From: Candidatus Omnitrophota bacterium
Lineage (GTDB): Bacteria; Omnitrophota; Gorgyraeia; Gygaellales; Profunditerraquicolaceae
Length of the DNA stretch: 64,000 nucleotides
Assembly (NCBI GenBank): GCA_016208765.1
Contig: JACQXK010000001.1
Span: 192,365 to 256,364 of the forward strand
Direction: 5' to 3'
The notes beneath the pieces were generated by a model. It searched no databases. It was not told the origin of the DNA and saw only the letters and a program-made list of their open reading frames with translations. The position numbers and the translations under genes are program-made. Positions 2,792 to 54,846 of the stretch are shown here, piece after piece (within the stretch, counting starts at the first letter, position 1; each line of letters opens with the position of its first letter).

Positions 2792-3505
2792 ATGCATGTA
2801 TTGATGTTTATGATTACCATAGTCATTCTGTTTATCGTAGCGAGAATTGGTGCTATTGCTTTTGAACTTACCGGACTTAAATTGCACATTTCCCGTTTTC
2901 AAGCACTATCTTGTTTTACGAATACTGGATTTAGTACTAAGGAATCCGAGCTTATTGTAAGTAGCCATCAAAGAAGGAAAATTGCATCGGTACTTATGAT
3001 TATAGGCTATGCAGGATTTGTTAGCCTGATCGCATCATTTGTAAATGCAATGAAACTTCCTGAGCATATAGAAAATACTTCTGTAACTTTTCTAAATTTC
3101 GTCTTTCCTGCTAATTTATTGCCTTCTATAAATCTGGCTTTAATTTTATTTTTTACTTATATTTCCTATAAAGTATTTTTTAGTTCAAAATTGGCGGATA
3201 GGTTAACTGAACTGTTGAAAAACCGCTTAATTAAACGGGGGATATTTGCTCCAATTCATCTTGAAGAATTTATGATTACCTCAAAAGGCCACTGTATTGC
3301 TAATGTTGAAGTTTGTGAAAATAGTTTTGTGTTAAATAAGGAAATAGGTGACCCATATTTTAGAGACTGTGGTATTTCAATATTAGCTATTGAGAGGGAG
3401 GGAGAGATATTGGCTAATTCTCCGGTAAACACCAAGTTGTGTTTGGGCGATAAAATTATTTGCTCAGGTAAAATAGAGAATATTAAAAAAAGTATTTTAA
3501 TTTAA
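2792..3505 (+). CDS. Membrane protein with a C-terminal TrkA-C/RCK_C-like domain.
   Basis: 237 aa with hydrophobic N-terminal segments and a C-terminal region resembling RCK_C (…ILAIEREGEILANSPVNTKLCLGDKIICSG). Confidence 0.5.
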   Translation: MHVLMFMITIVILFIVARIGAIAFELTGLKLHISRFQALSCFTNTGFSTKESELIVSSHQRRKIASVLMIIGYAGFVSLIASFVNAMKLPEHIENTSVTFLNFVFPANLLPSINLALILFFTYISYKVFFSSKLADRLTELLKNRLIKRGIFAPIHLEEFMITSKGHCIANVEVCENSFVLNKEIGDPYFRDCGISILAIEREGEILANSPVNTKLCLGDKIICSGKIENIKKSILI

Positions 3506-3594
3506 CTTGGATTAATGAGGAATAGGGACAGAGAGTTTAATTAGAAATAATATTGTGTCTTCGGAATTTGCCGTAATTTAAAAATTGCGTTATT

Positions 3595-3603
3595 GGGGGG
3601 GGG
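3595..3603 (+). repeat. G9 homopolymer immediately upstream (spacer/RBS position) of the secreted repeat-protein start codon.
   Basis: Nine consecutive G, read directly from the sequence, followed by ATATG. Confidence 0.9.
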
Positions 3604-3605
3604 AT

Positions 3606-4700
3606 ATGAAAAAGATATTTGTTGCATTACTTGTTATCGTAATTATTAATTTCCTTTGTTTTACTCAACTACCATCAGTAAGAGCTGAAGAAGCCAGAAC
3701 ATTTATAGGAACGATTGAATCTTTTAGGCCGGTTATGGGCAGGCCGCCAAAGTGGTATTTTGCCAGGTTTACGGCTGTTAATGATATTGGCGAAAAGAAA
3801 GAATTCTGGATATTGGGAGCTTCCGGTGCCTCTCCGACTTCTGTTACTGATTTTGATGGTAAGCCGATGGATAAACCAGGTTATAATCATAGGCCTCAAG
3901 TGGGTAAAAAAGTAGAAGTAAAGTATTCAACCGCTGGAAACGGACGCAATGAGGCTATTTCGATCCGCTATGTTCCTGCGGATTATGTGCCGCAGGTAAC
4001 AGCACCGGCTGCGCAACCAGGTTTAAATTCAACGTCCTCGGCAATCGCCGTTTCCGAAGCCGGAAATAATATCTTTGTAGGAAAAGTTGTAAAGGGCGGA
4101 GTCACTTTCAGCTTGAAATGTCCTTATAGGTTCGTAATTGTTATTGATAATGGCGAGAAGAAAGATGTTTGGATACCAAGGGATAATATGCGCATTACCG
4201 AGCTTAACGGTAATTCAGTATATGGCGCACCTCCGAGAGCAGGTAGAAAAATGGAGATCAAATATTTGACCGGGGACAACGGCCAATACGAAGCAGTCTC
4301 TATGCATTATGTTCCTGAGGATTATGTGCAGAAATCCACAACGCCAGTCTTACTAACACAAACCCCAGCCACGACTACGGAGCAGGAAGTAAAATTTCAG
4401 GGTAATGTTTTTGTGGGTAAACTGGAGAAGGCTACGCCGGTTTTTCACCATATTGACAAGTCACAGCCACGATGCAAGCTTTTGGTTGTAGCGGATAATG
4501 GGGAACAAAAACTTTTCTTTGTATCCGGACTTTGTCCGGTTATTGACGCAAGCGGAAAAGACATAAGCCAAACTTGGGGGAATATTGCATCTTTGCTTAA
4601 GAATGGTGAGCGCCTTGAGGTAAAATATTCGGTTATTAGAAATGGAAACTACATAACAAATGGACAGAACGGAGCGGATTCGATTCGTTGCCTGGATTAA
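3606..4700 (+). CDS. Secreted hypothetical protein containing three roughly 110-aa internal repeats.
   Basis: ATG at 3606 gives MKKIFVALLVIVIINFLCFTQLPSVRAEE, a signal peptide. The ORF track starts at TTG 3585, but the ATG sits just after a G9 tract. The three repeat units each end in '(E/V)(V/I)KY.T..NG.YEA.S..YVP.DYV'. Confidence 0.7.
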   Translation: MKKIFVALLVIVIINFLCFTQLPSVRAEEARTFIGTIESFRPVMGRPPKWYFARFTAVNDIGEKKEFWILGASGASPTSVTDFDGKPMDKPGYNHRPQVGKKVEVKYSTAGNGRNEAISIRYVPADYVPQVTAPAAQPGLNSTSSAIAVSEAGNNIFVGKVVKGGVTFSLKCPYRFVIVIDNGEKKDVWIPRDNMRITELNGNSVYGAPPRAGRKMEIKYLTGDNGQYEAVSMHYVPEDYVQKSTTPVLLTQTPATTTEQEVKFQGNVFVGKLEKATPVFHHIDKSQPRCKLLVVADNGEQKLFFVSGLCPVIDASGKDISQTWGNIASLLKNGERLEVKYSVIRNGNYITNGQNGADSIRCLD

Positions 4701-4804
4701 TATGAGCAAGCAAGAAGATAAGAAAAAAGTATTTCTTCCGCTTTGGGCTAACGGATGGTCTAAATACCGCGTGATGATTTTGGGGATTTTAATGAGGATG
4801 AATA

Positions 4805-5521
4805 ATGAGGGCTAAAATGGTTATGGAAAAAATTATTTTTGCCTGGAGCGGCGGTAAAGATAGCGCCATGGCGCTTTATGAATTGAAAAAGAACAGGGAT
4901 TATGAAATATCAGCATTGCTTACTACGATAACAGAAGATTACAGCAGGATAAGCATGCACGGCGTCCGGGAAATTCTTCTTGAGCAACAGGCAGATTCTT
5001 TAGGTCTGCCTTTGGAGAAAATCTATATTACAAAAAAATCATCTAATGAAGAGTATGAAACTAAGATGAGGGATACGTTGATCCGTTATCAAAGTAACGG
5101 TGTTTTCTCTGTAGCTTTCGGTGATATTTTTCTTGAAGACTTAAAGAAATATCGCGAGGGCAATTTGTTAAAAATAGGCATGAAAGGCATTTTTCCTGTC
5201 TGGAAAAGAAATTCTTTTGAGCTCGCTAATACATTTATTGATTTAGGTTTTAAAGCGGTTATTACTTGTATTGATTCAAAAGTTCTTGATAAGGCTTTTG
5301 CCGGCAGGAATTTTGATAAGCAATTTTTATCAGAACTTCCTCCCAATGTTGACCCCTGCGGAGAGAATGGGGAATTTCATTCATTTGTGTACGAGGGCCC
5401 AATATTTTCAAAGCGAATATTATATGAAAAGGGTGAGGTTGTTTTAAGAGATAACCGGTATTATTTCTGTGATTTGATGCCAGTTGAGAATAAATTGGCT
5501 GTTGGTGCAAACTTGCCCTGA
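4805..5521 (+). CDS. PP-loop ATP pyrophosphatase of the Dph6 / MJ0570-like (diphthine-ammonia-ligase-like) family.
   Basis: N-terminus …KIIFAWSGGKDSAMALYEL contains the SGGKDS PP-loop. Its size (about 235 aa) fits the MJ0570 family. The true start may be Met-5 or Met-7. Confidence 0.65.
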   Translation: MRAKMVMEKIIFAWSGGKDSAMALYELKKNRDYEISALLTTITEDYSRISMHGVREILLEQQADSLGLPLEKIYITKKSSNEEYETKMRDTLIRYQSNGVFSVAFGDIFLEDLKKYREGNLLKIGMKGIFPVWKRNSFELANTFIDLGFKAVITCIDSKVLDKAFAGRNFDKQFLSELPPNVDPCGENGEFHSFVYEGPIFSKRILYEKGEVVLRDNRYYFCDLMPVENKLAVGANLP

Positions 5522-5673
5522 GCCTGCCTAAGATGCGGGGGGACATAATACTTAATTAGAAATAAGTACTGTCTCCGGAATTCCTTGCGTCTATTGACCG
5601 TTGGTGCAAGTACAACGTGATGATTTTGGGGATATTGGAGCGGACAAATACTTTGGAATGAAGGGGTTAAGCT

Positions 5674-6672
5674 ATGAAAAATAAGATTACTGAAATACCG
5701 GTAAGGGGTGAAATTGCCATTTATCAGACTAAAGACAAGAAAGTCCAGCTGGAAGTTAAGCTGGAGCAGGAAATGGTTTGGCTTTCACAAGAGCAGATAG
5801 CGAATCTTTTCAAAACTGAACGAAGCGTTATTACTAAGCATCTCGGCAATATCTTCTGTTCCAATGAATTAGGAGAGAAAAGCAATGTGCATTTTTTGCA
5901 CATTCCCTTTTCGGATAAACCGGTAAAATTTTACAATCTTGATGTGATAATTTCAGTTGGGTACAGGGTTAATTCGTCTCGTGCTACACAGTTTCGTATC
6001 TGGGCTACAAATGTCCTGAAGCGGCATTTGATTGATGGTTATACCATTAATGAGAAACGCTTGAAACAGCAGACCCAAAAACTTGAAGCTTTACAGAAAG
6101 CAGTAAAGCTAATAAGCAGTATGAAGGATCGCAAGCAGCTTGAATATAAGGAAGCCATGGGGCTGCTTGAAGTAATCAGCGATTATAGCTACGCACTTGG
6201 GCTTTTAGATGATTATGATTATAAGCGGCTAAAGATAACCAAAACTTCAAAAGAAGAAAAGTTTATTTTAAGCTACGAATTGGCAATAGAAGCTGTAAAT
6301 AAGCTCAAAGACAGAATTGGTAGTTCAGATCTTTTTGGCACAGAGCGTGATAAATCATTTAAGAGTTCGGTATCTTCAATCTATCAAACGTTTGACAGGA
6401 AAGATTTATATCCAAGCATTGAAGAGAAGGCAGCTAATTTGCTTTATTTCATTGTTAAAAATCATTCTTTTGTTGATGGGAACAAACGAATCGCTGCTTC
6501 AATATTTTTGTGGTTCTTAGAGAATAATGGTATTCTGTATAAAGAAGACGGCTCAAAGCGCATCGCCGATAATGCATTAGTCGCTTTGACTCTGATGATT
6601 GCAGAAAGTAAGCCCAGTGAGCGAGATATTATCGTTACGCTGGTTGTGAATTTGATAAACAGGAATAATTAA
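5674..6672 (+). CDS. RhuM-family protein with a C-terminal Doc-type Fic domain.
   Basis: The N-terminal region matches the RhuM virulence-protein family (…VISVGYRVNSSRATQFRIWATNVLKRHLIDGY…). The C-terminus has HSFVDGNKRIAA, i.e. the Doc-type HxFx(D/N)(A/G)NKR motif rather than the AMPylating GNGR motif. Confidence 0.75.
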   Translation: MKNKITEIPVRGEIAIYQTKDKKVQLEVKLEQEMVWLSQEQIANLFKTERSVITKHLGNIFCSNELGEKSNVHFLHIPFSDKPVKFYNLDVIISVGYRVNSSRATQFRIWATNVLKRHLIDGYTINEKRLKQQTQKLEALQKAVKLISSMKDRKQLEYKEAMGLLEVISDYSYALGLLDDYDYKRLKITKTSKEEKFILSYELAIEAVNKLKDRIGSSDLFGTERDKSFKSSVSSIYQTFDRKDLYPSIEEKAANLLYFIVKNHSFVDGNKRIAASIFLWFLENNGILYKEDGSKRIADNALVALTLMIAESKPSERDIIVTLVVNLINRNN

Positions 6673-6821
6673 AAACAAGTTTTATTAAGGTTATGAGGGA
6701 TAGAATTTTTAATTAGACATAAGTATTGTTTCCCCGGAATTATCAATGCGTTACCATACAAAAATAATTATATTTGTTCCGTAACTTTAATAATTACAGG
6801 TAGTTTAGGAAAGCGTCATAT

Positions 6822-7964
6822 ATGCTGAAAACAGGTTTTTTATTGGGTGCTGGATTTTCTAAATATGGAGGAATGCCACTATCTTGTGATTTTGTTATAC
6901 AAGCCCAAAACATACTGGATAATAGGCTTGAAAGATCATATATACCTTCGCGTGAGCCTAAAAACTTGCAGAGTCTTGTTAGATTTAAAGATTTCGTTTC
7001 AGATGAGAAAGGAAGAGAGATTAACCATATTGAAGAAATCATTAAGTTGTCTGATCAATACCGGCTTACTAAAGATTGGGACAATATTGATAAAGAAGTT
7101 AGAGATGCAATTTATGAGATATTGATTGCAGCGCCTTTTATCATGTATTTAAAAGATAAAAATGAGTTATATAAAATGTTTGATATTTATTTAAGATTTT
7201 TGTTAATTGTTGCAGATTCCGAAGCTATGATTGCAACATTGAATTATGATCCTCTCCTGGAGCTTTTGTTACACACAGCAGCAATGTCAATAACACCGAA
7301 TAGCCAGCTATTTCATAAATTCGCTGAAATTGTTAGTTTTAATTATGGAATTGGAGATTTTTCATACCGACCTTTATGGGGTTCTTCTTCTAATATAGAT
7401 AGAGTAGATATATTATATTTTAAATTGCATGGAGCTACTAATTGGGAAGGTTGTGATCAACACGGATTAACAGAGGTTTGCGATCCACTAAAAACTAGGG
7501 CAATTGGGCGCTGTAGAGAGTGCAACATGCCAGCAAAACCATTTATTATTTATCCAGTTGAGGAAAAGAAATTAAATAGTCAGTTATCAGCATTGTGGGA
7601 TACCGCTTTTGGAGCATTAATGCAAGTGGAACAGATTGTTATAATTGGATGCCGATTCAATGAAACAGACAAAGATATATTTAAAAATGTTAACGAATTA
7701 ATTAGTAACAATAAAAGACTTGTAATTGTTGATCCGCAAGGCAGGCAAATTAAAGAAAGAATTGCCAAGCTAAATGAAAATGTTGTATACATCGATAATG
7801 GGAATGGCGAAGGAGCGGTATTTGAAGATATTTTCTGTGATGGTAAAACAGTAGCAAACGAAAATTTTCAAGAAATCACTAACTTAAGATTACGTAAAGA
7901 TGTGCAATATTTTCGAAACGAACAACCTTCTATGCCTTTTTTTGAAGAACCAGTCGCAACATGA
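6822..7964 (+). CDS. Standalone SIR2-like (SIR2_2/PF13289-type) domain protein; candidate NADase defence effector.
   Basis: N-terminal 'FLLGAGFS' glycine-rich motif typical of the SIR2_2 family, with a downstream 'YFKLHGATNW' histidine motif. 380 aa with no other recognisable domain. Confidence 0.65.
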   Translation: MLKTGFLLGAGFSKYGGMPLSCDFVIQAQNILDNRLERSYIPSREPKNLQSLVRFKDFVSDEKGREINHIEEIIKLSDQYRLTKDWDNIDKEVRDAIYEILIAAPFIMYLKDKNELYKMFDIYLRFLLIVADSEAMIATLNYDPLLELLLHTAAMSITPNSQLFHKFAEIVSFNYGIGDFSYRPLWGSSSNIDRVDILYFKLHGATNWEGCDQHGLTEVCDPLKTRAIGRCRECNMPAKPFIIYPVEEKKLNSQLSALWDTAFGALMQVEQIVIIGCRFNETDKDIFKNVNELISNNKRLVIVDPQGRQIKERIAKLNENVVYIDNGNGEGAVFEDIFCDGKTVANENFQEITNLRLRKDVQYFRNEQPSMPFFEEPVAT

Positions 7965-8203
7965 GCAGTTATCTTAATTGTATTGGTTAGATTGACCAGA
8001 CGGATATGTAGAGTTAGAGGTTTGTTAGTTATTAGATAATAATAAGTTATGAAAAATAAATATAGTATATACATGCGTACCTTTGGATGGCCGTTGGTTA
8101 CAGTGGCTAGGGATGGCACTGGATGTGTTAAAGAGGGTAAATGGCTTGGAGTGAAAGGGTTGCGGGAAAACAAGTCTGAAAACGAAAATCTTATTAATGT
8201 TGT

Positions 8204-8209
8204 ATAATG
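8204..8209 (+). promoter_or_regulatory. Extended -10 element (TGtTATAAT) upstream of the giant NTPase gene, followed by a (GTAAT)x3 micro-repeat.
   Basis: TG at 8201-8202 and TATAAT at 8204-8209; gtaatgtaatgtaatg lies immediately downstream. Assigned by pattern only. Confidence 0.35.
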
Positions 8210-8248: not shown

Positions 8249-11200
8249 TTGATAGCTATGCAAGAAGTAAATTGGAACAACTTTAAAGCAAAGTTTAACG
8301 GTAAAGAGCAAAAATCTTTCGAGTGGTTTTGCTATCTCTTGTTTTGTAAAGAATTCAAGAAGAACACCGGAATATCCAGGTATAAAAACCAAGCAGGGAT
8401 AGAAGCCGAGCCTATTGAACATAATGGTCAAATGATAGGGTTTCAGGTGAAATTCTATGAAACAAGGATTAGTGAGAATAAAGACGACATAAAAAAGTCT
8501 ATTGAAACGGCAAAGAGAAAGAATGGCAACCTTAACAAAATCATATTTTATATAAATCAGGAATTCTCAGAAAGTAGCAAAAAAGATAAGAAAGACCCCG
8601 CATACAAAATCGACATAGAAAATTATGCTAAGTTTCTTGGCGTGGAAATAGATTGGAGAAGCAGAAGCTTTTTTGACTCTTCATTTGTCTGTCAGGACAA
8701 TGCCGTAATAGCACAACACTTTTTTGACTTAGGCAAGAGCGCGATTGATTTCTTAAATGAGTTAACTCAGCATACCGAAGCTATCCTAGCGGCAATAAAT
8801 TCAAAAATAAACCTCAGAAATAATGAAATAAAAATAGATACGGCACAGAATATAAAAGTGCTACAAGATGTTCTGAATACTTCTCCCATGGCTATTTTAA
8901 GTGGAGAGGCAGGGGTAGGAAAAACCGCTCTCATCAAAGATTTTTATGACTCAAGCAAAGACAAGGCTCCTTTTTACATCTTTAAAGCTGCCGAATTCTG
9001 CATACCCAACATAAATCAACTTTTCGCCAATTACGGATCATTTACCCTGTCAGATTTCATGAGAGAACACCAAGATTTCCAAGAAAAATACATAGTAATC
9101 GATTCTGCTGAAAAGTTATCTGACATTGAATATAAGGAAGTTTTTCAGGAATTTTTATCCACCCTGCAAATTAACAAATGGAAAGTCATATTTACAACAA
9201 GACATAGCTACTTGGACGATTTAAGATTTCAGTTTATTGAGGTTTACCATGTCCGGTGTCAGCCAGTAAATATCGAAAATCTTACCTCGGCACAACTTGT
9301 CGAGATTTCAAAAAAATATGGTTTTGATCTGCCAAGGAATGACAGGTTGCTTGAGCTTTTGCGAACACCTTTCTATTTAAATGAATATCTACAAAATTAT
9401 GATAGTTTAGGAAACGCAATAAGTTTTTCTGATTTTAAAAATTTGTTGTGGAACAAGCAGATATCCAAAACTTCATATCAGAAGGATAACATACATATAA
9501 AACGGGAAAAATGCTTCCTGGAGATTGCTCATAAGAGGGCTGCTGAGGGCAGCTTTTTTGTAAAGGCTGATGGGTGTGATGATGAAGTTTTACGGGCTCT
9601 TGAGAACGATGAAATTATAAAATATAACTCCAATGCGGGCGGTTACTTTATTACACATGACATTTATGAAGAGTGGGCATTGGATAACATAATTGAAAGA
9701 ACGTTTTTGAATTCAAAAGATTACAGGGATTTCTTAAGGGGGATAGGAAGTTCTTTGCCAGTTCGTCGAGCTTTTCGGAATTGGCTCTCAGAAAAACTAT
9801 ATAATAATGGAAATGAAGTAAAAGCATTTATTGAATTTGCAATCAATGATGATACGATTGAGAGCTATTGGAAGGACGAAATCTACGTATCAATCTTGCT
9901 ATCCGATTACGCAGAGGTCTTTTTTGACATATTCAAAGACAAGCTTTTAGAAAATAACCAAACTCTCCTGGTGAAAATTATTTTTTTGCTGAGAATCGGT
10001 TGTAAAGAGATTGATGAAGACTTGCTTAATATATTTGGTATTCAAAAAACGGCGTGGAGCGCATTGAAAACTATCTTCACGAAACCAAAAGGCCGTGGAT
10101 GGAAATGCACCATCAATTTTATACATGAGCATAAAGGCGCATTGGGATTACAAAGAATGAATATAATCCTCCCCATGCTTGATGATTGGAATAACAAAAA
10201 TAAAGGGGGCGAAACTACAAAGCAAGCGAGCCAGATAGCGTTATATTATTATAACGAACTCACAAAACAACAATATTATCATATCTCTGACCGCAAAGAG
10301 GGGCAATTAATCAGAGTCATTTTGCAAGGCTCATCAGAAATTAAGGATGAGTTGAAAACTATCTTAGATGAAGTTATCTCTAACAAAGCGGTTGATTACA
10401 GGGATAGGTACTACGTTCTTATTAAGCCAATACTAACATCACTTACGGATTCCTTCGAGGTGGTTAAAGCTCTGCCGAATTATGTAATAAGATTAGCAGA
10501 TATTTTTTGGTTCCAAAATCCCAATGAATTAGATGAGGATTATAGATATTCAAGAAGAATGGACATGGAGGATTACTTTTGTATTTCATCAAGGCATAAC
10601 GACTTTTTACCAGCAAGTGCATTCCAAACACCTATATTCCAGCTTTTAAAGATATCTCCCCAAGAGACAACGGACTTTATTTTATCGTTTACCAACAAGA
10701 CGGTTGAATGCTATGCGAAATCTAAGCTTGATGGTGAAATAGAACAGGTAGACGTTTTTGTCGATAATAATAAAGCGATAAAGCAATATATAAGCAACAG
10801 GCTTTGGTGCATGTACCGTGGAACCCAAGTTTCTCCATACCTTCTTGAGTCTATACATATGGCTCTCGAAAAATGGCTTCTGGACGTCGCCAAATCAGCA
10901 TCAAAAGAGGTTATAGAAAGCCGGTGCCTGTATCTTATAAAAAACTCTAAATCTGCTTCAATAACCGCAGTTGTTTCAAGCGTGGTTTTAGCTCAACCGT
11001 CAAAGCTTTTCAATGTTGCAAAAATACTTTTCCAAACAAAACAATTCTTCCTTTACGACACGGCAAGGATGATGCTTGACCAATCACACAAAGGTCAATT
11101 ATTAGGGTTGAGAAATCTCTTTCCTCGTAACTACGATAATGAAATCTATGAAGATGAAAGAATAAAAGCTTGTGATGATAGCCACAGAAAATACGCATTA

Positions 11201-13009
11201 GAGCATTTAGCTCTTAATTATCAGTTATTCAGGACAGAAGAAGAAAGAGAGGATGAGGTTAAAGATAGACAAGAAATCATATGGGCCATATTCGATAAAT
11301 ATTATGCAGAGCTCCCAGACAAATCAACAGAAACGGAATCCGACAAGACATGGAAGCTATATTTGGCAAGAATGGATAGAAGAAAGATGAGTCCAGAAAT
11401 TGAGAAGACAGATGAAGGCACTTTCATTAAATTCAATCCCGAAATCGACGCCGATTTAAAAAAACATAGTGAAGATGCTCTGCAAGAAATTTCCGAGAAG
11501 ATGAAGTATACAGGTTTACGGCTATGGGCAGATAGCAGATTCAGAGGAGAAGAAGAGACCTACAAAAAATATCCTCAGTATGAAACCGAACCAAAACGTG
11601 TAATTACAGAAGCAAAGGAAATATTTGAAGGGCTAAAGACCACAAAAAGGGAAGAATTTTCCCTGTTTAACCGTTCAATACCCGCATATGCTTGCTCTGT
11701 TTTAATGCGTGATTTTTTTGGCAAACTTGATTCAGATGAAAAAGAATTCTGCAAAGAAGTAATTATTGGGTATGCAGCTATACCGTTAATGACAGAACAG
11801 TATATGTACCAGATATCCGATGGCACGGAAGCCGCAATTGCTCTTTTACCCAATCTTCTGGAGCATTTTCAAAAAGATAAGAAAGATATCAAAATGTTGT
11901 TGTTTAGATTGCTGCTCATCCCGTCCCGAGAAATATCAACATTTGTTGCAAGAGGCATTTTGCATAAGTTATGGAAAATCAGTTTTAATGATGCAAACTC
12001 TATGTTTCTAGGATATCTTTTGCTTTCACCCAAATATTATGCGCTTATCGATGAAATACGAGAAGAAAATTACAAAAGAAAAAATCACGGCGATTTAAGA
12101 ACACAGGTTTCTAAAGCATTTGAAGAAAAGTATAGAAAGGAACTTGAGAGGGTTAACAAGAACGGCATTTCTTATGATGAATTAGATGGCTTAGAAAAGA
12201 TAGATTTAGAAATTCTAAAATCGGCGTTTGAGTTATTGCCTTTGGAAACAACTGACAACGATCATAAGAAATTCTTGAGCGCAATCTTTCCCATTTTCGC
12301 AACGAAAATCTTACAGGATGATCGTGAGGACAGAATTGACTATACCCTAAGGCATAGATTCTTAGAAAAATTTGCATATTTTACCTTAAACCTCCCGAAA
12401 AAAGAAATAATGATATATTTGCGACCTTTTATCGATAATTTTCACAACTCAAGAGAAATGTCTGAATTCTTCCAAGAATTTATATTTGTAGAAGATAGGC
12501 TGTCCAAATATGACGAATTCTGGACAATATGGAATGCTTTTTATGAGAAGGTGGCAGATTTATGTAAGAGCAAGAGCAGTTATTATGCAAAAGAAGTCAT
12601 AAGTAGCTATCTCTTAGCAGGGATACCCTGGAATGAAAAAGCAAAAGAATGGCATACGCTAAAAGAACGAGAAAAGATATTCTATAAAAAGGTAGCTGAG
12701 GAAATGGGGCAGCACCCAGCGGTGTTGTATTCCATTTCCAAGGTTCTAAACGGCATCGGAAGCAATTTTATAGAAGACGGATTAACCTGGATAAGCTATA
12801 TCTTAGAAAACAACAAACAGCTAAGCTCGGAAGAATTAGAAACAAATACCATTTTTTACATAGAGACCTTTCTTCGACGATATATTCTAAATAATCGTCT
12901 ACATATTAGGAGGTCACTATTGATTAAGAAGCAACTTATCGTTGTTTTAAATTTCTTGATAGGAAGAGGTTCGATCGTAGGGTATTTATTACGAGATGAT
13001 ATTTTATAA
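8249..13009 (+). CDS. Giant STAND-like P-loop NTPase (1586 aa) with an N-terminal Mrr-like PD-(D/E)xK nuclease-fold domain and a long helical C-terminus; resembles the Avs (antiviral STAND) architecture.
   Basis: N-terminus FEWFCYLLFCKEF…GIEAEP…QMIGFQVKFYE follows the Mrr_cat pattern (FE.L…GID…I.QCK.Y). Walker A is [12 protein letters not shown] near aa 220 and Walker B is KYIVIDSAEKL near aa 280. More than 1200 aa of non-repetitive, helix-rich sequence follows. Confidence 0.6.
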   Translation: MIAMQEVNWNNFKAKFNGKEQKSFEWFCYLLFCKEFKKNTGISRYKNQAGIEAEPIEHNGQMIGFQVKFYETRISENKDDIKKSIETAKRKNGNLNKIIFYINQEFSESSKKDKKDPAYKIDIENYAKFLGVEIDWRSRSFFDSSFVCQDNAVIAQHFFDLGKSAIDFLNELTQHTEAILAAINSKINLRNNEIKIDTAQNIKVLQDVLNTSPMAILSGEAGVGKTALIKDFYDSSKDKAPFYIFKAAEFCIPNINQLFANYGSFTLSDFMREHQDFQEKYIVIDSAEKLSDIEYKEVFQEFLSTLQINKWKVIFTTRHSYLDDLRFQFIEVYHVRCQPVNIENLTSAQLVEISKKYGFDLPRNDRLLELLRTPFYLNEYLQNYDSLGNAISFSDFKNLLWNKQISKTSYQKDNIHIKREKCFLEIAHKRAAEGSFFVKADGCDDEVLRALENDEIIKYNSNAGGYFITHDIYEEWALDNIIERTFLNSKDYRDFLRGIGSSLPVRRAFRNWLSEKLYNNGNEVKAFIEFAINDDTIESYWKDEIYVSILLSDYAEVFFDIFKDKLLENNQTLLVKIIFLLRIGCKEIDEDLLNIFGIQKTAWSALKTIFTKPKGRGWKCTINFIHEHKGALGLQRMNIILPMLDDWNNKNKGGETTKQASQIALYYYNELTKQQYYHISDRKEGQLIRVILQGSSEIKDELKTILDEVISNKAVDYRDRYYVLIKPILTSLTDSFEVVKALPNYVIRLADIFWFQNPNELDEDYRYSRRMDMEDYFCISSRHNDFLPASAFQTPIFQLLKISPQETTDFILSFTNKTVECYAKSKLDGEIEQVDVFVDNNKAIKQYISNRLWCMYRGTQVSPYLLESIHMALEKWLLDVAKSASKEVIESRCLYLIKNSKSASITAVVSSVVLAQPSKLFNVAKILFQTKQFFLYDTARMMLDQSHKGQLLGLRNLFPRNYDNEIYEDERIKACDDSHRKYALEHLALNYQLFRTEEEREDEVKDRQEIIWAIFDKYYAELPDKSTETESDKTWKLYLARMDRRKMSPEIEKTDEGTFIKFNPEIDADLKKHSEDALQEISEKMKYTGLRLWADSRFRGEEETYKKYPQYETEPKRVITEAKEIFEGLKTTKREEFSLFNRSIPAYACSVLMRDFFGKLDSDEKEFCKEVIIGYAAIPLMTEQYMYQISDGTEAAIALLPNLLEHFQKDKKDIKMLLFRLLLIPSREISTFVARGILHKLWKISFNDANSMFLGYLLLSPKYYALIDEIREENYKRKNHGDLRTQVSKAFEEKYRKELERVNKNGISYDELDGLEKIDLEILKSAFELLPLETTDNDHKKFLSAIFPIFATKILQDDREDRIDYTLRHRFLEKFAYFTLNLPKKEIMIYLRPFIDNFHNSREMSEFFQEFIFVEDRLSKYDEFWTIWNAFYEKVADLCKSKSSYYAKEVISSYLLAGIPWNEKAKEWHTLKEREKIFYKKVAEEMGQHPAVLYSISKVLNGIGSNFIEDGLTWISYILENNKQLSSEELETNTIFYIETFLRRYILNNRLHIRRSLLIKKQLIVVLNFLIGRGSIVGYLLRDDIL

Positions 13010-14043: not shown

Positions 14044-14361
14044 ATGGTTCTGGAAATTCTATTTGAGGCAGACAAGACAGCTCTAGAGAAACTCATAGAG
14101 AAAAGAGAGCATAAAGAACAGGTAATAGATAGTCAGATAGAAGAATGCGATAAGAAGGTTTTTCATAAATGTACCAAACGATCAGCCAAAAGATACAATA
14201 TGACCCAAACAGCAAGAATTTTAGGAGTTCATCGCGAGACATTATATTACTGGATCAAGAAAGGTTGGCTTAAGCCGAAGCGAGACTACAGGAATTATCC
14301 GGTTTTTACAGTTTTAGACATAGAAGAGCTGATAAAGTGGAAAGATACAATAAAATGTTGA
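14044..14361 (+). CDS. Small HTH DNA-binding protein (Xis/AlpA/MerR-like HTH_17) with a coiled N-terminal half.
   Basis: C-terminal MTQTARILGVHRETLYYWIKKGWLKPKR is a typical excisionase/MerR-type helix-turn-helix. No integrase gene is nearby. Confidence 0.6.
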   Translation: MVLEILFEADKTALEKLIEKREHKEQVIDSQIEECDKKVFHKCTKRSAKRYNMTQTARILGVHRETLYYWIKKGWLKPKRDYRNYPVFTVLDIEELIKWKDTIKC

Positions 14362-29310: not shown

Positions 29311-30588
29311 TTGCCTATTTTCCTGAAAAATACCTTCCGGTTAATTTTTCTTCTCGTTATATTCTTAGCCTTGCCAGTTTTTTTTCTTCAAAAGAAACTC
29401 CTTTCTTCAGGCCCATTCTTCTTGTTTTACCTGATTAATCTTACGTTTATTATCATTTCGGCAAACAGGGTTTCTAAAAGAAAATTTGCAGTTCAATACG
29501 AAAGCCAGAAGATTGAAGAAGGCCTGAATGTTTTGTCCGCGGATAATCTTAAAGAAGATAAACACAATATCAACCTGCAGCAAAAAACAATCCGCTATAA
29601 CAGTCTCAAAGAAATAATTGAAGAATTAAATCAAAGGCTTGATGTTGATTTTGTCGCCGGTAAGCTCTCGGGAATTGTATTTTCTTTGCTTGCCGCAAAT
29701 AAAGGGGCCTGTCTGTTGTATTTAGTGGATAACCAGACGCAAAGGCTCTCTTTGTTTAAAACAAAAAAAGAAAATTCCGGCATGGTGGTTAAGGCAAAAG
29801 AAGGCGATATGTTTGATTTGTGGGTACTCAGGCATACGAGCCCATTATTGGTTGAGGATGCAAAAAAAGATTTTCGTTTTGATTTAGATAAGTTTAAAAA
29901 GGATGATTCAAGGCAGGTTGAATCTTTAATCAGCTCTCCTTTGGTAAGCGGGCAGAAACTGATTGGGATCTTGCGCCTTGATTCTCCTGTTAAAAATGCA
30001 TTTAGCCAGGATGATCTGCGTTTCTTGGCTACGGTTTGTGAAATAGGAGCAGTGGCCCTGGAAAACAGCCAGTTGTTCCAGAAAACGAGGGATTTGGCGA
30101 TCCACGACGGGTTGACCTCGCTTTATACCAAGGGATATTTTCTGGAGCGGTTAAAAGAGGAATGCCGCAGGGCGTTGCGTCACGGCTCAGAGTTGAGCCT
30201 GTTAATGCTTGATATTGATTTCTTTAAAAATTATAACGATAAGTTTGGGCATAGCGCAGGAGATATTGTTTTAAAGAATTTAACGCGCTTATTGAATGAA
30301 TCCTCTAAGGGTGAAGATGCGGTTTTAGGCCGTTTTGGAGGAGAGGAATTTTGTGTGATCTTAAAAGGAAAAGACAAAAAAGATGCGCTTATTTTTGCGG
30401 ATGGATTGCGCCAGAAGATTGAAGGCGAGTCCGTAACCTTGCGCAGGGAAAGAACAAGCATTACTGTATCAATAGGCGTTGCAAGTTTTCCTCCGGATAC
30501 AACCGATGAAAATGACCTGGTGCGTAAGGCAGATGCGGCAATGTATGAGGCAAAGAAAAAAGGAAGAAATCAGGTATGCTGTATTTAA
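29311..30588 (+). CDS. Membrane-anchored GAF-GGDEF diguanylate cyclase.
   Basis: N-terminal TM helices, a GAF-like middle region and a GGDEF domain with RFGGEEF. Confidence 0.8.
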   Translation: MPIFLKNTFRLIFLLVIFLALPVFFLQKKLLSSGPFFLFYLINLTFIIISANRVSKRKFAVQYESQKIEEGLNVLSADNLKEDKHNINLQQKTIRYNSLKEIIEELNQRLDVDFVAGKLSGIVFSLLAANKGACLLYLVDNQTQRLSLFKTKKENSGMVVKAKEGDMFDLWVLRHTSPLLVEDAKKDFRFDLDKFKKDDSRQVESLISSPLVSGQKLIGILRLDSPVKNAFSQDDLRFLATVCEIGAVALENSQLFQKTRDLAIHDGLTSLYTKGYFLERLKEECRRALRHGSELSLLMLDIDFFKNYNDKFGHSAGDIVLKNLTRLLNESSKGEDAVLGRFGGEEFCVILKGKDKKDALIFADGLRQKIEGESVTLRRERTSITVSIGVASFPPDTTDENDLVRKADAAMYEAKKKGRNQVCCI

Positions 30589-31559
30589 CCGCACTGTTTT
30601 TACTGACTTTAATTCTGCAGGTTTATGTTTTAAGATTGCTGCGCATTAATTTTAATAAGGCAGATACAAAATTGAAACAATTAACAAGAAAGCACGCCAA
30701 TTTATTTAAGAAAAATGCTGCGCTTAAATCCGAGAACGCAGTTTTAGGAAAAAGTACTGAAGAAATTATCCAGATATATGAAGTTACCAAAAATATCTGC
30801 AAGAGCCTTGATGAAGAACAGGTCTTTAATAGTTTCCGTGAAGATGTAAGCCGGTTCATTAAATTGGATGATTGCAAATTCCTGAGTGCTGGAGAAGATA
30901 CTTCTCGGTATGATAAAGAAAATGTTTTGCCGATAAATATTGACGATAGTTTGGTTGGGTATCTTGCTGCTATTAATTTGCGCGCTGACGAACGCGAAGA
31001 ATTTTTTATTCTTGGAGGACAGTTCAAGCTTGGAATTGAAAGGGCGATTCTTTACAAAAAAGTCCAGGAGCTTGCGATTACCGACGGACTTACACAACTT
31101 TTGAGCCGCAGGTATTTCTTGGAAAAGTTTGCTGAAGAAATAGAGCGTTCACAGAAATTTGGGCTAAGTTTTGCTTTTTTGATGATTGATTTGGATAATT
31201 TTAAAAGCTTTAATGACCGTTACGGGCATTTAGTGGGAGATGCATTGTTAAGAGAAGTGGCGAATGGTATTAAAGAAAATATAAGGCAGATAGATTTTAT
31301 CTGTCGTTATGGCGGTGAAGAAATTGCGCTGGTGTTGGCTGAAACGAACCAGGAACATGCCCGGCTGGCAGCTGAGCGTATACGCAGGTCAATTGAATCA
31401 AAAAATATTAACATTTATGATGAAGTGCTTAAGATTACAATCAGTATAGGTATGTCTAATTTCCCGGATGGAAAGGCAGACGCAAAGTCGCTTATTGAAA
31501 AAGCAGATAAGGCTTTGTATAAGGCAAAGCAATCCGGCCGCAACAAAGTTTGTTTCTAA
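30576..31559 (+). CDS. GGDEF-domain protein (variant GGEEI active-site motif) with an N-terminal TM/coiled-coil and a GAF-like region.
   Basis: RYGGEEIAL in the GGDEF domain. It overlaps the upstream GGDEF gene by 13 nt. Confidence 0.75.
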   Translation: MLYLTALFLLTLILQVYVLRLLRINFNKADTKLKQLTRKHANLFKKNAALKSENAVLGKSTEEIIQIYEVTKNICKSLDEEQVFNSFREDVSRFIKLDDCKFLSAGEDTSRYDKENVLPINIDDSLVGYLAAINLRADEREEFFILGGQFKLGIERAILYKKVQELAITDGLTQLLSRRYFLEKFAEEIERSQKFGLSFAFLMIDLDNFKSFNDRYGHLVGDALLREVANGIKENIRQIDFICRYGGEEIALVLAETNQEHARLAAERIRRSIESKNINIYDEVLKITISIGMSNFPDGKADAKSLIEKADKALYKAKQSGRNKVCF

Positions 31560-51765: not shown

Positions 51766-52248
51766 CTACCATTTTAAAAGCGGTATTTTATATCCTTCCT
51801 TGTTTGGGTCGTCTACTTTATATTTTGGTTTCATTAACGGTTTATCATAAGGAGGCAATCCGCTTGTTGCCACATCAACGCTGCCTGCTATTCCACGTGC
51901 GATTCCTGTGACTATCCCTTCTCCAAAGCCCACAATTGAGCCGACAACAACATTGCTTTTCTTTGAATTTTCTTGAATTTTATCCGGGACATCAACCCAG
52001 GATGTTAACACGTTAATTAGGCCTTCGCCCATTTTATAACCGGCAGTATTTTTATCAAGTTTATTTGTGTTGACGTTTTCCAGAAAAGCGCTTGGGATGG
52101 GCCTTAGGCTCACTCCGGCTACAGAAGGTGCAACTATTTCAGGTTGGGCGTAAATATTTGCGCAGGCAAAGAAGATCAAAGCTAAACTTGCCATTAAGAG
52201 CACTAATTTCTTCATCTTCCACCTCCTTGGCAGCCCCTCTATCCACAC
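51766..52248 (-). CDS. Small secreted protein, paralog of 51347..51760.
   Basis: Signal peptide MKKLVLLMASLALIFFACANIYA. C-terminal motif …GLPPYDKPLMKPKYKVD. Confidence 0.6.
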   Translation of the reverse strand: MWIEGLPRRWKMKKLVLLMASLALIFFACANIYAQPEIVAPSVAGVSLRPIPSAFLENVNTNKLDKNTAGYKMGEGLINVLTSWVDVPDKIQENSKKSNVVVGSIVGFGEGIVTGIARGIAGSVDVATSGLPPYDKPLMKPKYKVDDPNKEGYKIPLLKW

Positions 52249-52427
52249 ACTGGTCGGTGTAGGGACAGGTAACTTTGCGCCCCAGCATTGCTGCTGGTTT
52301 GCCTTTTTTCAATAGGTCCAAAGTAAATATAACATATTTGATTTGCTTATTCAAGGCAGAGGCTGGAAAAGTATTGTAATTAATGTAGGGGTATATATAA
52401 TAAGAATAGCCAGAAAAGGGGGGTTAT

Positions 52428-53084: not shown

Positions 53085-53158
53085 GGGCCCATAGCTCAGT
53101 TGGTCAGAGCAGGTGACTCATAATCACTTGGTCCGGGGTTCAAGTCCCTGTGGGCCCA
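53085..53158 (+). tRNA. tRNA with anticodon CAT. It is an elongator Met or a lysidine-modified Ile2 tRNA; it is not an initiator type.
   Basis: Cloverleaf folded by hand: acceptor GGGCCCA/TGGGCCC, D-arm GCTC-AGTTGGTCA-GAGC, anticodon arm GGTGA-CTCATAA-TCACT, T-arm CGGGG-TTCAAGT-CCCTG, discriminator A. Confidence 0.85.
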
Positions 53159-53174
53159 GAGATGAAATTGACGA

Positions 53175-53248
53175 GGGCATTTAGCTCAGTTGGTTAGAGC
53201 GCTACATTCACATTGTAGAGGTCAGAGGTTCAAGTCCTCTAATGCCCA
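53175..53248 (+). tRNA. tRNA-Val (anticodon CAC).
   Basis: Acceptor GGGCATT/AATGCCC, anticodon arm CTACA-TTCACAT-TGTAG, T-arm AGAGG-TTCAAGT-CCTCT, discriminator A. Confidence 0.85.
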
Positions 53249-54481: not shown

Positions 54482-54846
54482 TTGGGGTAGGTGGAATGTG
54501 GCTGCCCCTGCGTCAATTGGCGTAGGGGAGGAAAGTCCGGGCTCCGGAGGACAACGTAATGGCTAACAGCCATCCCTCGGTGATAAACCGGGGAGGATTA
54601 GAGCTACAGAGACGAGCCCCCGCGCCTTGGTGCGGGGGAGTGAAACGAGCAATCTCTACGTGGAGCAAGGTTCAATAGGGGATGAGCTTCGTAAAGAAAT
54701 TTATGAGGCAGGTGCTGGTCCGGCGCGTTATTAATCCCGGGTAGACTGCTTGAGTCCCGGCAGAAATGCCGAGGAACAGAGAAATGGTCACTAATGGTGC
54801 GGATATTCGTACTGAAACAGAACCCGGCTTATTCTTCTTGCCCCAA
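54482..54846 (+). ncRNA. rnpB: RNase P RNA (bacterial type-A-like).
   Basis: Contains the universally conserved GGAAAGTCCGGGCTCC (P4 5' strand) and ACAGAACCCGGCTTA (P4 3' strand). The 5' TTGGGGTAGG and 3' CTTGCCCCAA can form P1. Confidence 0.85.

What the first reader, a model, noticed from the sequence alone, without database searches (positions are those of the whole stretch)
3506..6821. Repeated roughly 100-nt leader element preceding four consecutive unrelated cargo genes
The intergenic regions upstream of the starts at 3606, 4805, 5674 and 6822 share a conserved module. Box A, GAGGGA…TTTAATTAGAAATAAGTACTGTCTCCGGAATT…TGCGT, is almost identical at 3540, 5556 and 6711 and degenerate at 4727. 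Box B, CGTGATGATTTTGGGGAT(A/T)TT, is clear at 4769 and 5617 and degenerate at 3586. Each downstream gene is functionally unrelated: a secreted repeat protein, a PP-loop ATPase, a Fic protein and a SIR2 protein. This looks like a cassette-type array sharing a common promoter or operator, or a structured 5' leader such as a regulator binding site or RNA element, rather than ordinary operon spacing.
Basis: seen in the sequence. Interest (0 to 1): 0.55.

Follow-up and report, generated by a model that had tools for sequence, protein, structure and literature searches.

The report
Palindromic module-end repeat in defence island
The repeated "leader" is really two things, a ~60-base palindromic element sitting just after several unrelated genes and a leftover piece of a neighbouring gene's end, and both mark the joints where gene modules have been swapped in an anti-phage defence island of an uncultured groundwater bacterium.

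Summary
The repeats are real, but they are not one 100-nt leader in four copies. Box A is a ~60-nt unit: a 16-bp imperfect inverted repeat around a conserved A-rich centre, followed by GGAATT. It occurs three times in the window (3512-3577, 5527-5591, 6684-6750), each 18-24 nt after the stop codon of the upstream gene, and nowhere else in the 64 kb. Ten more copies, one of them weak, lie in four related contigs, at least three of them Omnitrophota. In three of those contigs they lie between accessory genes. The claimed fourth copy at 4727 does not exist.

Box B is not regulatory. It is the last ~8 codons, the stop codon and ~25 nt downstream of a PP-loop (diphthine-ammonia-ligase-like) gene. 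That end is intact in relative L058 and survives as relics at 4751-4806 and 5593-5640.

The unit B-Fic-A (1126 bp) is shared with two relatives, and both flanks differ. Box A therefore stays with the upstream gene while the downstream gene changes.

The cargo is a defence island (PDC-S23 RhuM/Fic, SIR2, Avs4) upstream of miaB. The window encodes no recombinase.

Best reading: box A is a gene-end palindrome that also acts as a recombination joint, like phage PeSLs or REPs. It is not attC, not canonical REP, and not a 5' leader.

The parts
3512..3577 (+). Box A copy c1, 20 nt after the stop codon of the TrkA_C-domain gene. The 5' arm is 3524-3539, the centre ATTAGAAA is 3540-3547, the 3' arm is 3548-3562 and the GGAATT tail is 3563-3568. 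The hairpin is decayed (-5.5 kcal/mol, z -1.1).
   Evidence: 57.6 bits
5527..5591 (+). Box A copy c3, 18 nt after the PP-loop stop codon. The 5' arm GGGGACATAATACTTA is 5539-5554, the centre is 5555-5562, the 3' arm is 5563-5576 and GGAATTCC is 5577-5584. This is the best hairpin in the window (-14 kcal/mol, z -4.3). It is 91% identical to L046 13326-13372, which follows an unrelated gene.
   Evidence: 64.9 bits
6684..6750 (+). Box A copy c4, 24 nt after the Fic stop codon. The 5' arm is 6696-6711, the centre ATTAGACA is 6712-6719, the 3' arm is 6720-6735 and GGAATT is 6736-6741. Homology with L046 and L050 ends at 6741. The hairpin is weak (-7.4 kcal/mol), but the sequence is 88-90% conserved between these genomes, against 73-78% at Fic third codon positions.
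   Evidence: 71.6 bits
4751..4806 (+). Box B copy c2, a decayed relic of a PP-loop gene 3' end plus its downstream flank. In one frame the whole spacer 4701-4790 reads ..GLTDGLNTA**. The exact 18-nt core is 4770-4787. It lies directly upstream of the intact PP-loop gene.
   Evidence: (80% to L059 14146-14200; 91% to L058 894-925)
5593..5640 (+). Box B copy c3, a relic of a PP-loop gene end. It reads ..TVGASTT then TGA TGA at 5618-5623, followed by the flank TTTTGGGGATATT. The exact 18-nt core is 5616-5633. Positions 5593-5609 (ATTGACCGTTGGTGCAA) repeat 5494-5510 inside the intact gene.
   Evidence: family D15; 90% to L058 885-926
5494..5510 (+). The left copy of the 17-nt direct repeat (ATTGGCTGTTGGTGCAA) that, together with 5593-5609, brackets the 82-nt segment carrying box A c3. 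After this point the PP-loop gene has three novel codons (NLP*) in place of the family's usual ST(A/T)* end.
5616..6741 (+). The shared module B-leader-Fic-A (1126 bp). It is 88-90% identical to L050 7207-8333 and L046 9944-11068, and both flanks are unrelated in the three genomes.
5645..5673 (+). The last part of the Fic leader (TTTGGAATGAAGGGGTTAAGCT), which resembles the 3' part of motif X (window 8150, L058 91-128).
3606..4700 (+). Cargo gene 1: a secreted protein with three ~121-aa repeats and no Pfam or PADLOC hit. A run of 9 G (3595-3603) lies in its ribosome-binding region.
4817..5521 (+). Cargo or anchor gene 2: a PP-loop ATPase (Diphthami_syn_2, annotated as 'diphthine--ammonia ligase', 234 aa as annotated). 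It is 83-89% identical at the nucleotide level to L058 and L059.
5674..6672 (+). Cargo gene 3: a RhuM+Fic protein, which matches the PADLOC defence candidate PDC-S23.
6822..7964 (+). Cargo gene 4: a SIR2-like/AbiH-like protein (weak Pfam and PADLOC SIR2 hits). No box A follows it.
8049..8207 (+). Motif X, a recurrent junction element that starts like the 5' end of miaB (..RTFGWPLV..). It lies between the SIR2 and Avs4 genes and is 88% identical to L058 45-135.
8258..13009 (+). Avs4 (antiviral STAND NTPase), a full-length PADLOC match at 2087 bits. It belongs to the same island, which ends at miaB (14501).

Best explanation
Box A is a lineage-specific, low-copy palindromic element that sits at the 3' end of accessory gene modules in a variable defence island lying 4-10 kb upstream of miaB, next to a PP-loop gene. 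It has two roles.

(i) It is a constrained gene-end signal. The most likely form is a hairpin or protein-binding site that closes each transcription unit.

(ii) Because the same ~60 nt recur after unrelated genes, it is a portable stretch of homology at which modules are exchanged, deleted and duplicated. This works the way PeSL promoter/stem-loop cassettes do in T4-type phages, and the way REP-type repeats do in bacterial chromosomes.

Box B is a scar of the same process. It is the 3' end of the PP-loop gene, duplicated and left behind each time DNA was recombined in at that gene's end.

Shown: the anatomy, the copies, the 3' linkage, the module boundaries, the identity of box B and the constraint on box A. 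Inferred: that exchange goes through recombination at the repeats. The molecular role of the element (terminator, insulator or protein site) is also inferred.
For: Anatomy: there are 13 copies in 5 contigs, counting one weak copy (L059, 25 bits). One of them (L046 12303) is a perfect 16-bp inverted repeat, AGGGACATAATACTTA-ATTCAGAAA-TAAGTATTATGTCCCT. Across the 12 seed copies, 83.6% of stem cells pair, against 36-63% when the partners are slid.

3' linkage: 8 of 12 copies start 16-25 nt after a stop codon. Twelve of the 13 have the orientation of the flanking genes.

Restriction to the island: the covariance model with filters off finds 3 copies in 3.3 kb of the window and none in the other ~60 kb. 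Only 1 exact-pattern match turned up in the whole JACROS01 genome, although 5 of the 12 known copies fit that pattern.

Module boundaries:
- Window 5616-6741 equals L050 7207-8333 and L046 9944-11068, with unrelated flanks on both sides.
- L046 has an extra 1187-bp segment (A, DUF6788, NTP_transf_8), bracketed by two box B copies, that L050 lacks.
- L046 13376-13504 is a truncated Fic 3' end plus box A, abutting the GGAATTATA end of another box A.
- After Fic, the 5' half of box A is identical in the three genomes. The 3' half and tail differ between the window (AT tail) and L046/L050 (CC tail).

Box B is the PP-loop gene end. That end is intact in L058. It also appears as a 200-nt in-frame fragment in L059, four genes downstream of the intact PP-loop gene.

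Constraint: the 69 nt after Fic are 88-91% identical between genomes, against 73-78% at Fic third codon positions (p = 0.0015-0.03).

Context: the island carries the defence genes PDC-S23, SIR2 and Avs4. The position upstream of miaB-miaA-hflX is syntenic in L050 and L059. Some modules carry their own promoter after box A.

Published analogue: PeSLs (PMC2839356, PMC4122927).
Against: - There is no T-run after the stem, so it is not a classical intrinsic terminator.
- Several copies, including window c1 and c4, fold weakly (-5.5 and -7.4 kcal/mol, z about -1). Yet their sequence, especially the centre TTAATTAGAAATAAG, is conserved. That points to sequence recognition by a protein rather than to a hairpin as such.
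- Covariation is not above the shuffles.
- With only 15-30 nt of identity, RecA-type recombination would be inefficient.
- The exact 18-nt box B cores, with diverged sequence on both sides, look more like a site-specific core.
- One copy (L042/L043) lies between tRNA-Lys and serS, outside any island, and apparently antisense to both.
- No expression data are available.
Confidence: 0.45

Rival explanations
1. Box A is the recombination site of a dedicated cassette system that is integron-like or lox-like (16-bp arms around an 8-9-nt centre). An unlinked recombinase acts on it. The end of the PP-loop gene (box B) serves as the primary insertion site.
For: - Single-gene modules all point the same way, each followed by the element.
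- Content varies between close relatives.
- The centre is the most conserved part, as expected for an overlap region that must match between partner sites.
- Exact 18-nt box B cores bracket PP-loop + A in the window, and a 26-nt box B duplication brackets the extra module in L046.
- The truncated Fic fragment is joined exactly at a box A end.
- The element is under purifying selection.
- It is low-copy and confined to the island.
Against: - No recombinase or transposase is encoded by any ORF of 100 aa or more in 64 kb, nor in the genes called in L046, L050 and L059.
- Visible junctions fall at different points: the 5' flank for Fic2's box A, the centre for Fic's, and the 3' end for others. A fixed crossover is not seen.
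- The order of A and B is inconsistent: A then B in the window, B then A in L046 8726/8767 and L059.
- The attC hallmarks are absent.
Confidence: 0.17
2. Box A is a selfish REP/MITE-like palindromic element. A trans-acting transposase, for example a Y1/HUH RAYT, copies it into spots just downstream of genes. Its clustering in the island only reflects where insertions are tolerated.
For: - Copies range from a perfect palindrome through decayed copies, with an indel in the loop of the L042 copy. That pattern fits birth and decay.
- Contigs end inside copies (L046 at 13515).
- Relative to L058, window c3 looks like an 82-nt insertion into the PP-loop gene end, bracketed by a 17-nt direct repeat.
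- Nearly identical variants follow unrelated genes in different genomes (c3 versus L046 13326, 91%).
- One copy sits in a housekeeping spacer between tRNA-Lys and serS.
- Other Omnitrophota have a RAYT flanked by GTAG repeats (L052). In L063/L064 a different palindromic repeat flanks Fic.
- G·T mismatches outnumber A·C mismatches 28 to 13 on the + strand.
Against: - There is no GTAG or other fixed tetranucleotide 5' of the stem.
- Copy number is very low and confined to the island.
- No consistent target-site duplication is seen.
- Orthologous copies evolve more slowly than synonymous sites, which is not expected of inert relics.
- The window has no Y1_Tnp gene.
- The G·T excess may simply reflect the strong strand bias in composition.
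Confidence: 0.2
3. The element is a shared 5' regulatory module, such as a promoter, an operator or a leader RNA, that controls each downstream gene.
For: - The element lies upstream of four co-oriented genes.
- Some copies create weak sigma-70-like matches: TAGACA-18-AATTAT at 6714-6743 and TTCAGA-17-TATAAT in L046 12326-12354.
- Sequence conservation exceeds structural conservation, which would suit a protein operator.
Against: - The distance to the downstream start codon varies from 12 to 109 nt, while the distance to the upstream stop codon is tight.
- The element stays with the upstream Fic gene when the downstream gene changes.
- Box B is a coding-sequence relic.
- There is no Rfam match, no significant covariation and no significant fold.
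- Promoter-like matches in the region are no more frequent than in shuffles.
- The genes after box A in L046/L050 have their own promoter and operator downstream of the element.
Confidence: 0.08

Closest known systems
PeSL (promoter-early stem-loop) cassettes of T4-type phages (PMC2839356, PMC4122927)
   Same: Both are short conserved motifs containing a stem-loop, repeated between unrelated non-essential genes in a hyperplastic region. In both, insertions, deletions and replacements between close relatives have their breakpoints at the repeats.
   Different: PeSLs combine a strong sigma-70 promoter with an effective terminator and occur in phage genomes. Box A has no conserved promoter and no T-run, lies in a bacterial chromosome, and no mini-circles have been shown.
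REP/BIME/REPIN elements and their RAYT transposases (PMC3116915, PMC3337134)
   Same: Both are imperfect extragenic palindromes of about 40 nt lying just downstream of genes, mostly in one orientation, with copies ranging from perfect to decayed.
   Different: Box A has no 5' GTAG. It has a handful of copies confined to one island rather than dozens to hundreds dispersed around the genome. No flanked RAYT gene has been seen. Its centre is more conserved than its stem.
Integron attC sites and CALIN arrays (PMC4889954)
   Same: Both are hairpin-forming sites 3' of each gene in a co-oriented array of unrelated accessory genes. Array content varies between relatives. As in CALINs, there is no adjacent integrase.
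   Different: Box A lacks the conserved AAC/GTT triplet at the base of the stem. Its terminal region is conserved rather than variable. Some modules have their own promoters. Junction points are not fixed.
Minimal mobile elements and NIME/dRS3 repeat arrays of Neisseria (from my own knowledge, not checked here)
   Same: In both, a site between conserved flanking genes holds different gene cassettes in different strains, with short repeats and gene-end remnants at the junctions.
   Different: The repeat sequences and the phylum differ. Exchange in Neisseria relies on natural transformation and flank homology, and nothing is known about that here.

Membership tests
Integron attC / CALIN | Conserved AAC triplet in the 5' R box pairing with GTT in the 3' R box at the base of the hairpin (PMC4889954). 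| tested here: not met
   The stem bases read GGGGACA...TGTCCCC in all 12 seed copies. No AAC/GTT pair is present on either strand.
Integron attC / CALIN | [quoted passage not shown] | tested here: not met
   The centre TTAATTAGAAATAAG is the most conserved part, and the arms vary.
Integron attC / CALIN | An integron integrase next to the array. This is required for a complete integron but not for a CALIN. | tested here: not met
   No Phage_integrase or any other recombinase was found among the window ORFs of 100 aa or more, nor in the genes called in L046, L050 and L059.
Integron attC / CALIN | The site lies 3' of each cassette ORF, and all cassettes are co-oriented. | tested here: met
   Eight of the 12 seed copies lie 16-25 nt after a stop codon, and 12 of all 13 copies are co-oriented with the genes.
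REP / REPIN | A short imperfect extragenic palindrome. | tested here: met
   The element has a 16-bp stem, 83.6% of stem cells pair, and one copy is a perfect palindrome.
REP / REPIN | A conserved GTAG-type tetranucleotide 5' of the stem. | tested here: not met
   The 5' flank reads ..ATG(R)-GGGG/AGGG, with no GTAG. A bona fide GTAG repeat flanking a Y1_Tnp gene was seen in another Omnitrophota locus, L052.
REP / REPIN | High copy number, dispersed over the genome. | tested here: not met
   The window has 3 copies within 3.3 kb and none in the other ~60 kb. The whole JACROS01 genome gave one exact-pattern hit. The complete source genome could not be scanned.
REP / REPIN | A single-copy RAYT gene flanked by inverted repeats of the same family. 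| not testable with these tools
PeSL-type mobile regulatory cassette | A composite of a strong promoter and a terminator stem-loop. | tested here: inconclusive
   A stem-loop is present. There is no T-run and no conserved -35/-10 pair. Only individual copies give 9-10 of 12 promoter matches.
PeSL-type mobile regulatory cassette | Indel and replacement breakpoints between close relatives coincide with the repeats. | tested here: met
   Shown by the blastn boundaries at 5616 and 6741, the extra module in L046 and the truncated Fic fragment joined to a box A.
PeSL-type mobile regulatory cassette | Excised mini-circles joined at the repeat. | not testable with these tools
   This needs read-level or PCR data.
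cis-regulatory leader RNA / riboswitch | A conserved secondary structure supported by covariation, and a match to a known family. | tested here: not met
   Rfam gives nothing at either the gathering or the E<=10 threshold. The covariation score is 0.206 against 0.223 in shuffles.
cis-regulatory leader RNA / riboswitch | The element travels with the downstream gene and keeps a fixed distance from it. | tested here: not met
   It stays with the upstream Fic gene while the downstream gene differs, and the distance to the next start codon is 12-109 nt.
MITE | Terminal inverted repeats plus a target-site duplication. | tested here: inconclusive
   The inverted arms are present. GGAAT-like motifs on both sides of some copies, and a 17-nt repeat around c3, are suggestive but not consistent.

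The most novel reading that the evidence does not exclude
Box A and the box B core would be the two sites of a previously undescribed cassette system that does not use attC. An unlinked recombinase would insert, excise and reshuffle single defence-gene modules at the end of the PP-loop gene upstream of miaB in a clade of Omnitrophota. This would amount to an integron-like assembly line for defence islands.
Probability: 0.12. Interest if true: 0.85.

Novelty: new variant of a known kind. Interest (0 to 1): 0.4.

Why it matters
How defence islands are assembled and reshuffled is still poorly understood. This locus is a natural case where the module joints can be read directly. The same RhuM/Fic module, bounded by a gene-end relic on one side and a conserved palindrome on the other, sits in different neighbourhoods in three related genomes. 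If the palindrome is merely a gene-end hairpin that doubles as recombination homology, the PeSL principle extends from phage genomes to bacterial defence islands in an uncultured phylum. If it is a true recombination site, it would be a new cassette system. Either way the finding corrects a tempting misreading: a repeated spacer upstream of several genes need not be a regulatory leader.

Tried and rejected
- Rfam, at both the gathering and the E<=10 thresholds, gives nothing at the element.
- The attC reading is rejected: there is no AAC/GTT triplet and the centre is conserved (PMC4889954).
- The leader-RNA reading is rejected: spacer folding z-scores run from -1.75 to +0.97, and covariation is not above the shuffles.
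- The promoter reading is rejected: promoter-like sites are no more frequent than in shuffles, and none is conserved across copies.
- The fourth box A at 4727 and the box B at 3586 get no support from the HMM or the covariance model.
- Most collection-scan hits were chance. Of the 37 genome-contig hits, 36 were chance or a conserved coding stretch in gut Bacilli. Among the metagenome hits, L038-L041 and L044 (a marine repeat) and L045 (an unrelated GGAAATAAGGGGACACAA repeat) were set aside. The viral-contig scan found nothing.
- Fic relatives at 87-92% identity (L047-L049, L051-L057, L060-L064) have no box A, so the element belongs to a lineage, not to the Fic gene.
- An A-like sequence I thought I saw downstream of the PP-loop gene in L058 is not supported by the covariance model.
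- The anticodon arm of the adjacent tRNA-Lys in L042 (GGACAC..CTTAAT) resembles the arm of box A. I treat this as coincidence, because CTTAA is in the stem of box A, not in a 7-nt loop.
- The left half of spacer c2 might be a junction between motif X and the PP-loop end. It aligns only weakly (score 19-20), so this is left open.
- A dif/Xer-like reading of the centre was rejected by eye: only 5 of 11 positions match the XerD arm consensus as I recall it.

Full report
**Where the window comes from.** The TrkA_C-domain protein at 2792-3505 is identical to HY761_01090 of a Candidatus Omnitrophica MAG, on a contig of 258,789 bp. Nearly all genes are on the + strand, and GC skew is positive over nearly the whole window. 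The finding lies in a stretch of accessory genes. On its left are core genes: CopA 203-2473, an S4 protein and the TrkA_C protein. On its right are miaB (14501), miaA, hflX, clpB and hrcA-grpE-dnaK-dnaJ. PADLOC assigns the RhuM/Fic protein to PDC-S23, gives 6822-7964 weak SIR2 hits, and matches 8258-13009 to Avs4 over its full length at 2087 bits. This is a defence island. No ORF of 100 aa or more in the 64 kb hits a recombinase or transposase family.

**Checking the observation.** Box A is real at three places. The 14-mer TTAATTAGAMATAA with at most one mismatch occurs only at 3537, 5552 and 6709, against 0.24 expected. A covariance model built from 12 copies and run without filters over the whole window returns only 3512-3577, 5527-5591 and 6684-6750 (57-72 bits). 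The next hit scores 16 bits.

Box B is an exact 18-mer at 4770 and 5616. Neither the profile HMM nor the covariance model finds the proposed degenerate box A at 4727 or the degenerate box B at 3586. So there is no single 100-nt module present four times. There are two different elements, and they coincide in only one spacer (5522-5673).

**Anatomy of box A.** Collection scans and look-ups of contigs that encode relatives of the island's proteins gave nine more clear copies. They are L046 8767, 11014, 12303, 13321 and 13451; L050 (JACROS010000066.1) 5148, 8279 and 9572; and L042 237. A weak copy lies at L059 14230.

The unit has four parts: a short 5' flank (..TTAAGGnTATGr), a 16-bp imperfect inverted repeat, an 8-9-nt centre (ATTnAGAAA) and a tail GGAATT(CCT/ATA). 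L046 12303 is a perfect palindrome, AGGGACATAATACTTA-ATTCAGAAA-TAAGTATTATGTCCCT.

Across the copies, 83.6% of stem cells pair, against 36-63% when the partners are slid. Covariation does not exceed the shuffles, and only three pairs change on both sides. G·T mismatches outnumber A·C mismatches 28 to 13 on the + strand, but the genome's strand bias could explain that. Hairpin energies run from -22 to -5.5 kcal/mol. Window copies c1 and c4 are weak and c3 is good. The centre and inner stem are the most conserved columns. Rfam has no match.

**Box A belongs to the upstream gene.** Eight of the 12 seed copies begin 16-25 nt after a stop codon, whereas the distance to the next start codon ranges from 12 to 109 nt. 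Window 5616-6741 aligns with L050 7207-8333 (88.5%) and L046 9944-11068 (89.8%). That alignment runs from the start of box B, through the Fic gene, exactly to the GGAATT of box A. The sequence on both sides is unrelated in the three genomes.

After box A the window has the SIR2 gene. L046 and L050 have a second Fic-family gene with its own TTGACA-17-TATACT promoter and a palindromic operator-like repeat.

The 69 nt after the Fic stop codon are 88-91% identical among the three genomes, against 73-78% at Fic third codon positions (Fisher p = 0.0015-0.03). The element is therefore constrained and not an inert relic.

**What box B is.** The PP-loop gene has close relatives in L058 and L059. In L058 the intact gene ends ...GTTGGTGTAAGTACCGCG TGA TGATTTTAGGGAT. 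This is box B, 90% identical to window 5593-5634.

L059 has an intact PP-loop gene, then four genes, and then a 200-nt in-frame fragment of the PP-loop 3' end that runs straight into box B. A weak box A follows it.

Window 5593-5623 translates as ..TVGASTT**. In one frame the spacer 4701-4790 reads ..GLTDGLNTA**; the family's C-terminus is ..VG(A/V)S(T/I)A*. Box B is therefore the last codons, the stop codon and ~25 nt of flank of a PP-loop gene, left behind as relics.

The window's own PP-loop gene departs from the family after ..GGTGCAA and ends in three novel codons. Relative to L058, 82 nt carrying box A c3 sit there, between two copies of a 17-nt repeat at 5494 and 5593. The rest of the Fic leader (5645-5673) resembles the 3' part of another recurrent junction element, motif X.

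**Evidence for module exchange.**
- L046 and L050 are collinear at 93-97% identity, except for 1187 bp in L046 (box A, a promoter, DUF6788 and NTP_transf_8). That segment is bracketed by two box B copies, where L050 has only one.
- L046 13376-13504 is a truncated Fic 3' end plus box A, joined directly to the GGAATTATA end of the preceding box A.
- After Fic2, L046 carries the gene for a 265-aa protein and L050 carries genes for 327-aa and 157-aa proteins. The box A copies at that joint are different variants.
- The island lies upstream of miaB in the window, in L050 and in L059, with a PP-loop gene or its relic 4-10 kb upstream and different genes in between.
- Visible joints fall at the 5' flank, the centre or the 3' end of box A, and in or beside box B. 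They do not fall at one fixed nucleotide.

**Distribution.**
- Fic relatives at 87-92% identity in other Omnitrophota contigs have no box A or box B nearby. The one exception is a box B-like stretch in L051. The elements therefore belong to a lineage, not to the Fic gene.
- One such genome has a different palindromic repeat on both sides of Fic (L063/L064).
- Another has a Y1_Tnp gene flanked by inverted GTAG repeats (L052).
- The scan of one genome per species found a single exact-pattern match in JACROS01, although 5 of the 12 known copies fit that pattern. This argues for a low copy number.
- L042/L043, from Hainich groundwater, has one copy with a 13-nt loop insertion that lengthens the stem. 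It lies between tRNA-Lys and serS and is apparently antisense to both.

**Interpretation.** The 5'-leader or promoter reading fails on linkage, on spacing, on the identity of box B and on the RNA tests. The attC reading fails on the AAC/GTT triplet and on the conserved centre, judged against the definition in PMC4889954. Canonical REP fails on GTAG and on copy number.

What fits best is a gene-end palindrome under selection that also supplies the short homology at which modules are swapped. Box B and motif X are scars of the same traffic. This is the logic described for the PeSL cassettes of T4-type phages (PMC2839356, PMC4122927). I give it 0.45.

Two rivals remain open. One is a dedicated site-specific system (0.17), favoured by the conserved centre, by the exact 18-nt box B cores and by the island restriction. 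The other is a REP/MITE-like selfish element (0.20), favoured by the gradient from perfect to decayed copies and by the insertion-like configuration at c3.

**What is shown and what is inferred.**
- Shown: the copies and their anatomy; their position after stop codons; the shared B-Fic-A unit with unrelated flanks; the extra module in L046; the gene-end origin of box B; the constraint on the Fic-linked box A; the defence content of the island; and the absence of a recombinase in the window.
- Inferred: that recombination at the repeats produced these arrangements, whether that recombination was homologous or site-specific, and what box A does at the RNA or DNA level.

Noticed in passing
window 8049-8207; also L058 48, L047 11924, L049 11059, L051 12257, L057 6214, L063 2026: Motif X is a recurrent 90-160-nt junction element. 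It begins like a small ORF (M..KKV(Y/H)LKTFGWP(L/M)V) and resembles the 5' end of miaB with a 1-nt indel. It sits at module joints next to Fic, TIR, PP-loop and Avs4 genes in many Omnitrophota contigs. Its 3' part recurs in the Fic leader at window 5645-5673.
   Followed up: partly
window 3595-3603: A run of nine G lies 2 nt upstream of the ATG of the secreted repeat-protein gene, inside its ribosome-binding region. It could be a slipped-strand (phase-variable) tract.
   Followed up: no
window 8258-13009, 6822-7964, 5674-6672, 14044-14361: The island carries a full-length Avs4 (2087 bits), a weak SIR2-like gene, a PDC-S23 RhuM/Fic gene and a small HTH protein that hits mad1. Together they form a defence island directly upstream of miaB.
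   Followed up: partly
one search hit list; loci L046-L064: The RhuM/Fic protein has hundreds of relatives at 75-95% amino-acid identity in Omnitrophota contigs, and the genomic neighbourhoods differ widely. The PP-loop protein is similarly conserved (71-88%) across several phyla. This is unusually high conservation for island genes.
   Followed up: partly
L052 1921-1937, 2040-2726, 2743-2762, 3101-3120: A Y1_Tnp (RAYT-like, 228 aa) gene is flanked by inverted GTAGACAGT(G/T)TA(C/T)(A/G)TAA repeats, with a further direct copy 358 nt downstream. Its arm matches the arm of box A at 13 of 19 positions, which may be chance.
   Followed up: partly
L063 about 1895-1945 and about 3475-3520; both ends of L064: A different palindromic repeat, GGATCCCCGCTTTCGCGGGGATGACAG, flanks the Fic gene on both sides in another Omnitrophota genome. 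Contig L064 begins and ends inside it.
   Followed up: no
L046 13376-13450: The last ~60 coding nt of the Fic gene, plus its spacer, sit as a truncated fragment between two box A copies.
   Followed up: yes
L052 15752-15818: A perfect palindrome, GGGGGACAGCGAGCATTATT..AATAATGTTTGCTGTCCCCC, shares only the outer GGGGACAG/CTGTCCCC with box A (23 bits). It may be a distant relative or an ordinary terminator.
   Followed up: no
window 52226-52313 (-) and 51766-52248 (-): A c-di-GMP-I riboswitch (58 bits) lies upstream of one of the very few minus-strand ORFs (160 aa, no Pfam hit). Two GGDEF genes lie at 29311-31559.
   Followed up: no
window 31747-37791 and 39455-41917: ORFs of 2014 aa and 820 aa have no Pfam hit at E<=1e-5. 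GC skew turns negative only in 32001-33000, inside the larger ORF.
   Followed up: no
window 53085-53248, 54485-54847, 54061-54471: Two tRNA genes and a class A RNase P RNA (178 bits) lie here. An RNase H/RVT_3 gene sits immediately upstream of the RNase P RNA.
   Followed up: no
L042 365-439 / L043 1251-1325: The lone box A copy outside an island sits 60 nt downstream of a tRNA-Lys(CTT) gene and 30 nt upstream of serS. Because this copy is nearly palindromic, the reverse strand also scores 30 bits against the model, so its orientation is not certain.
   Followed up: partly
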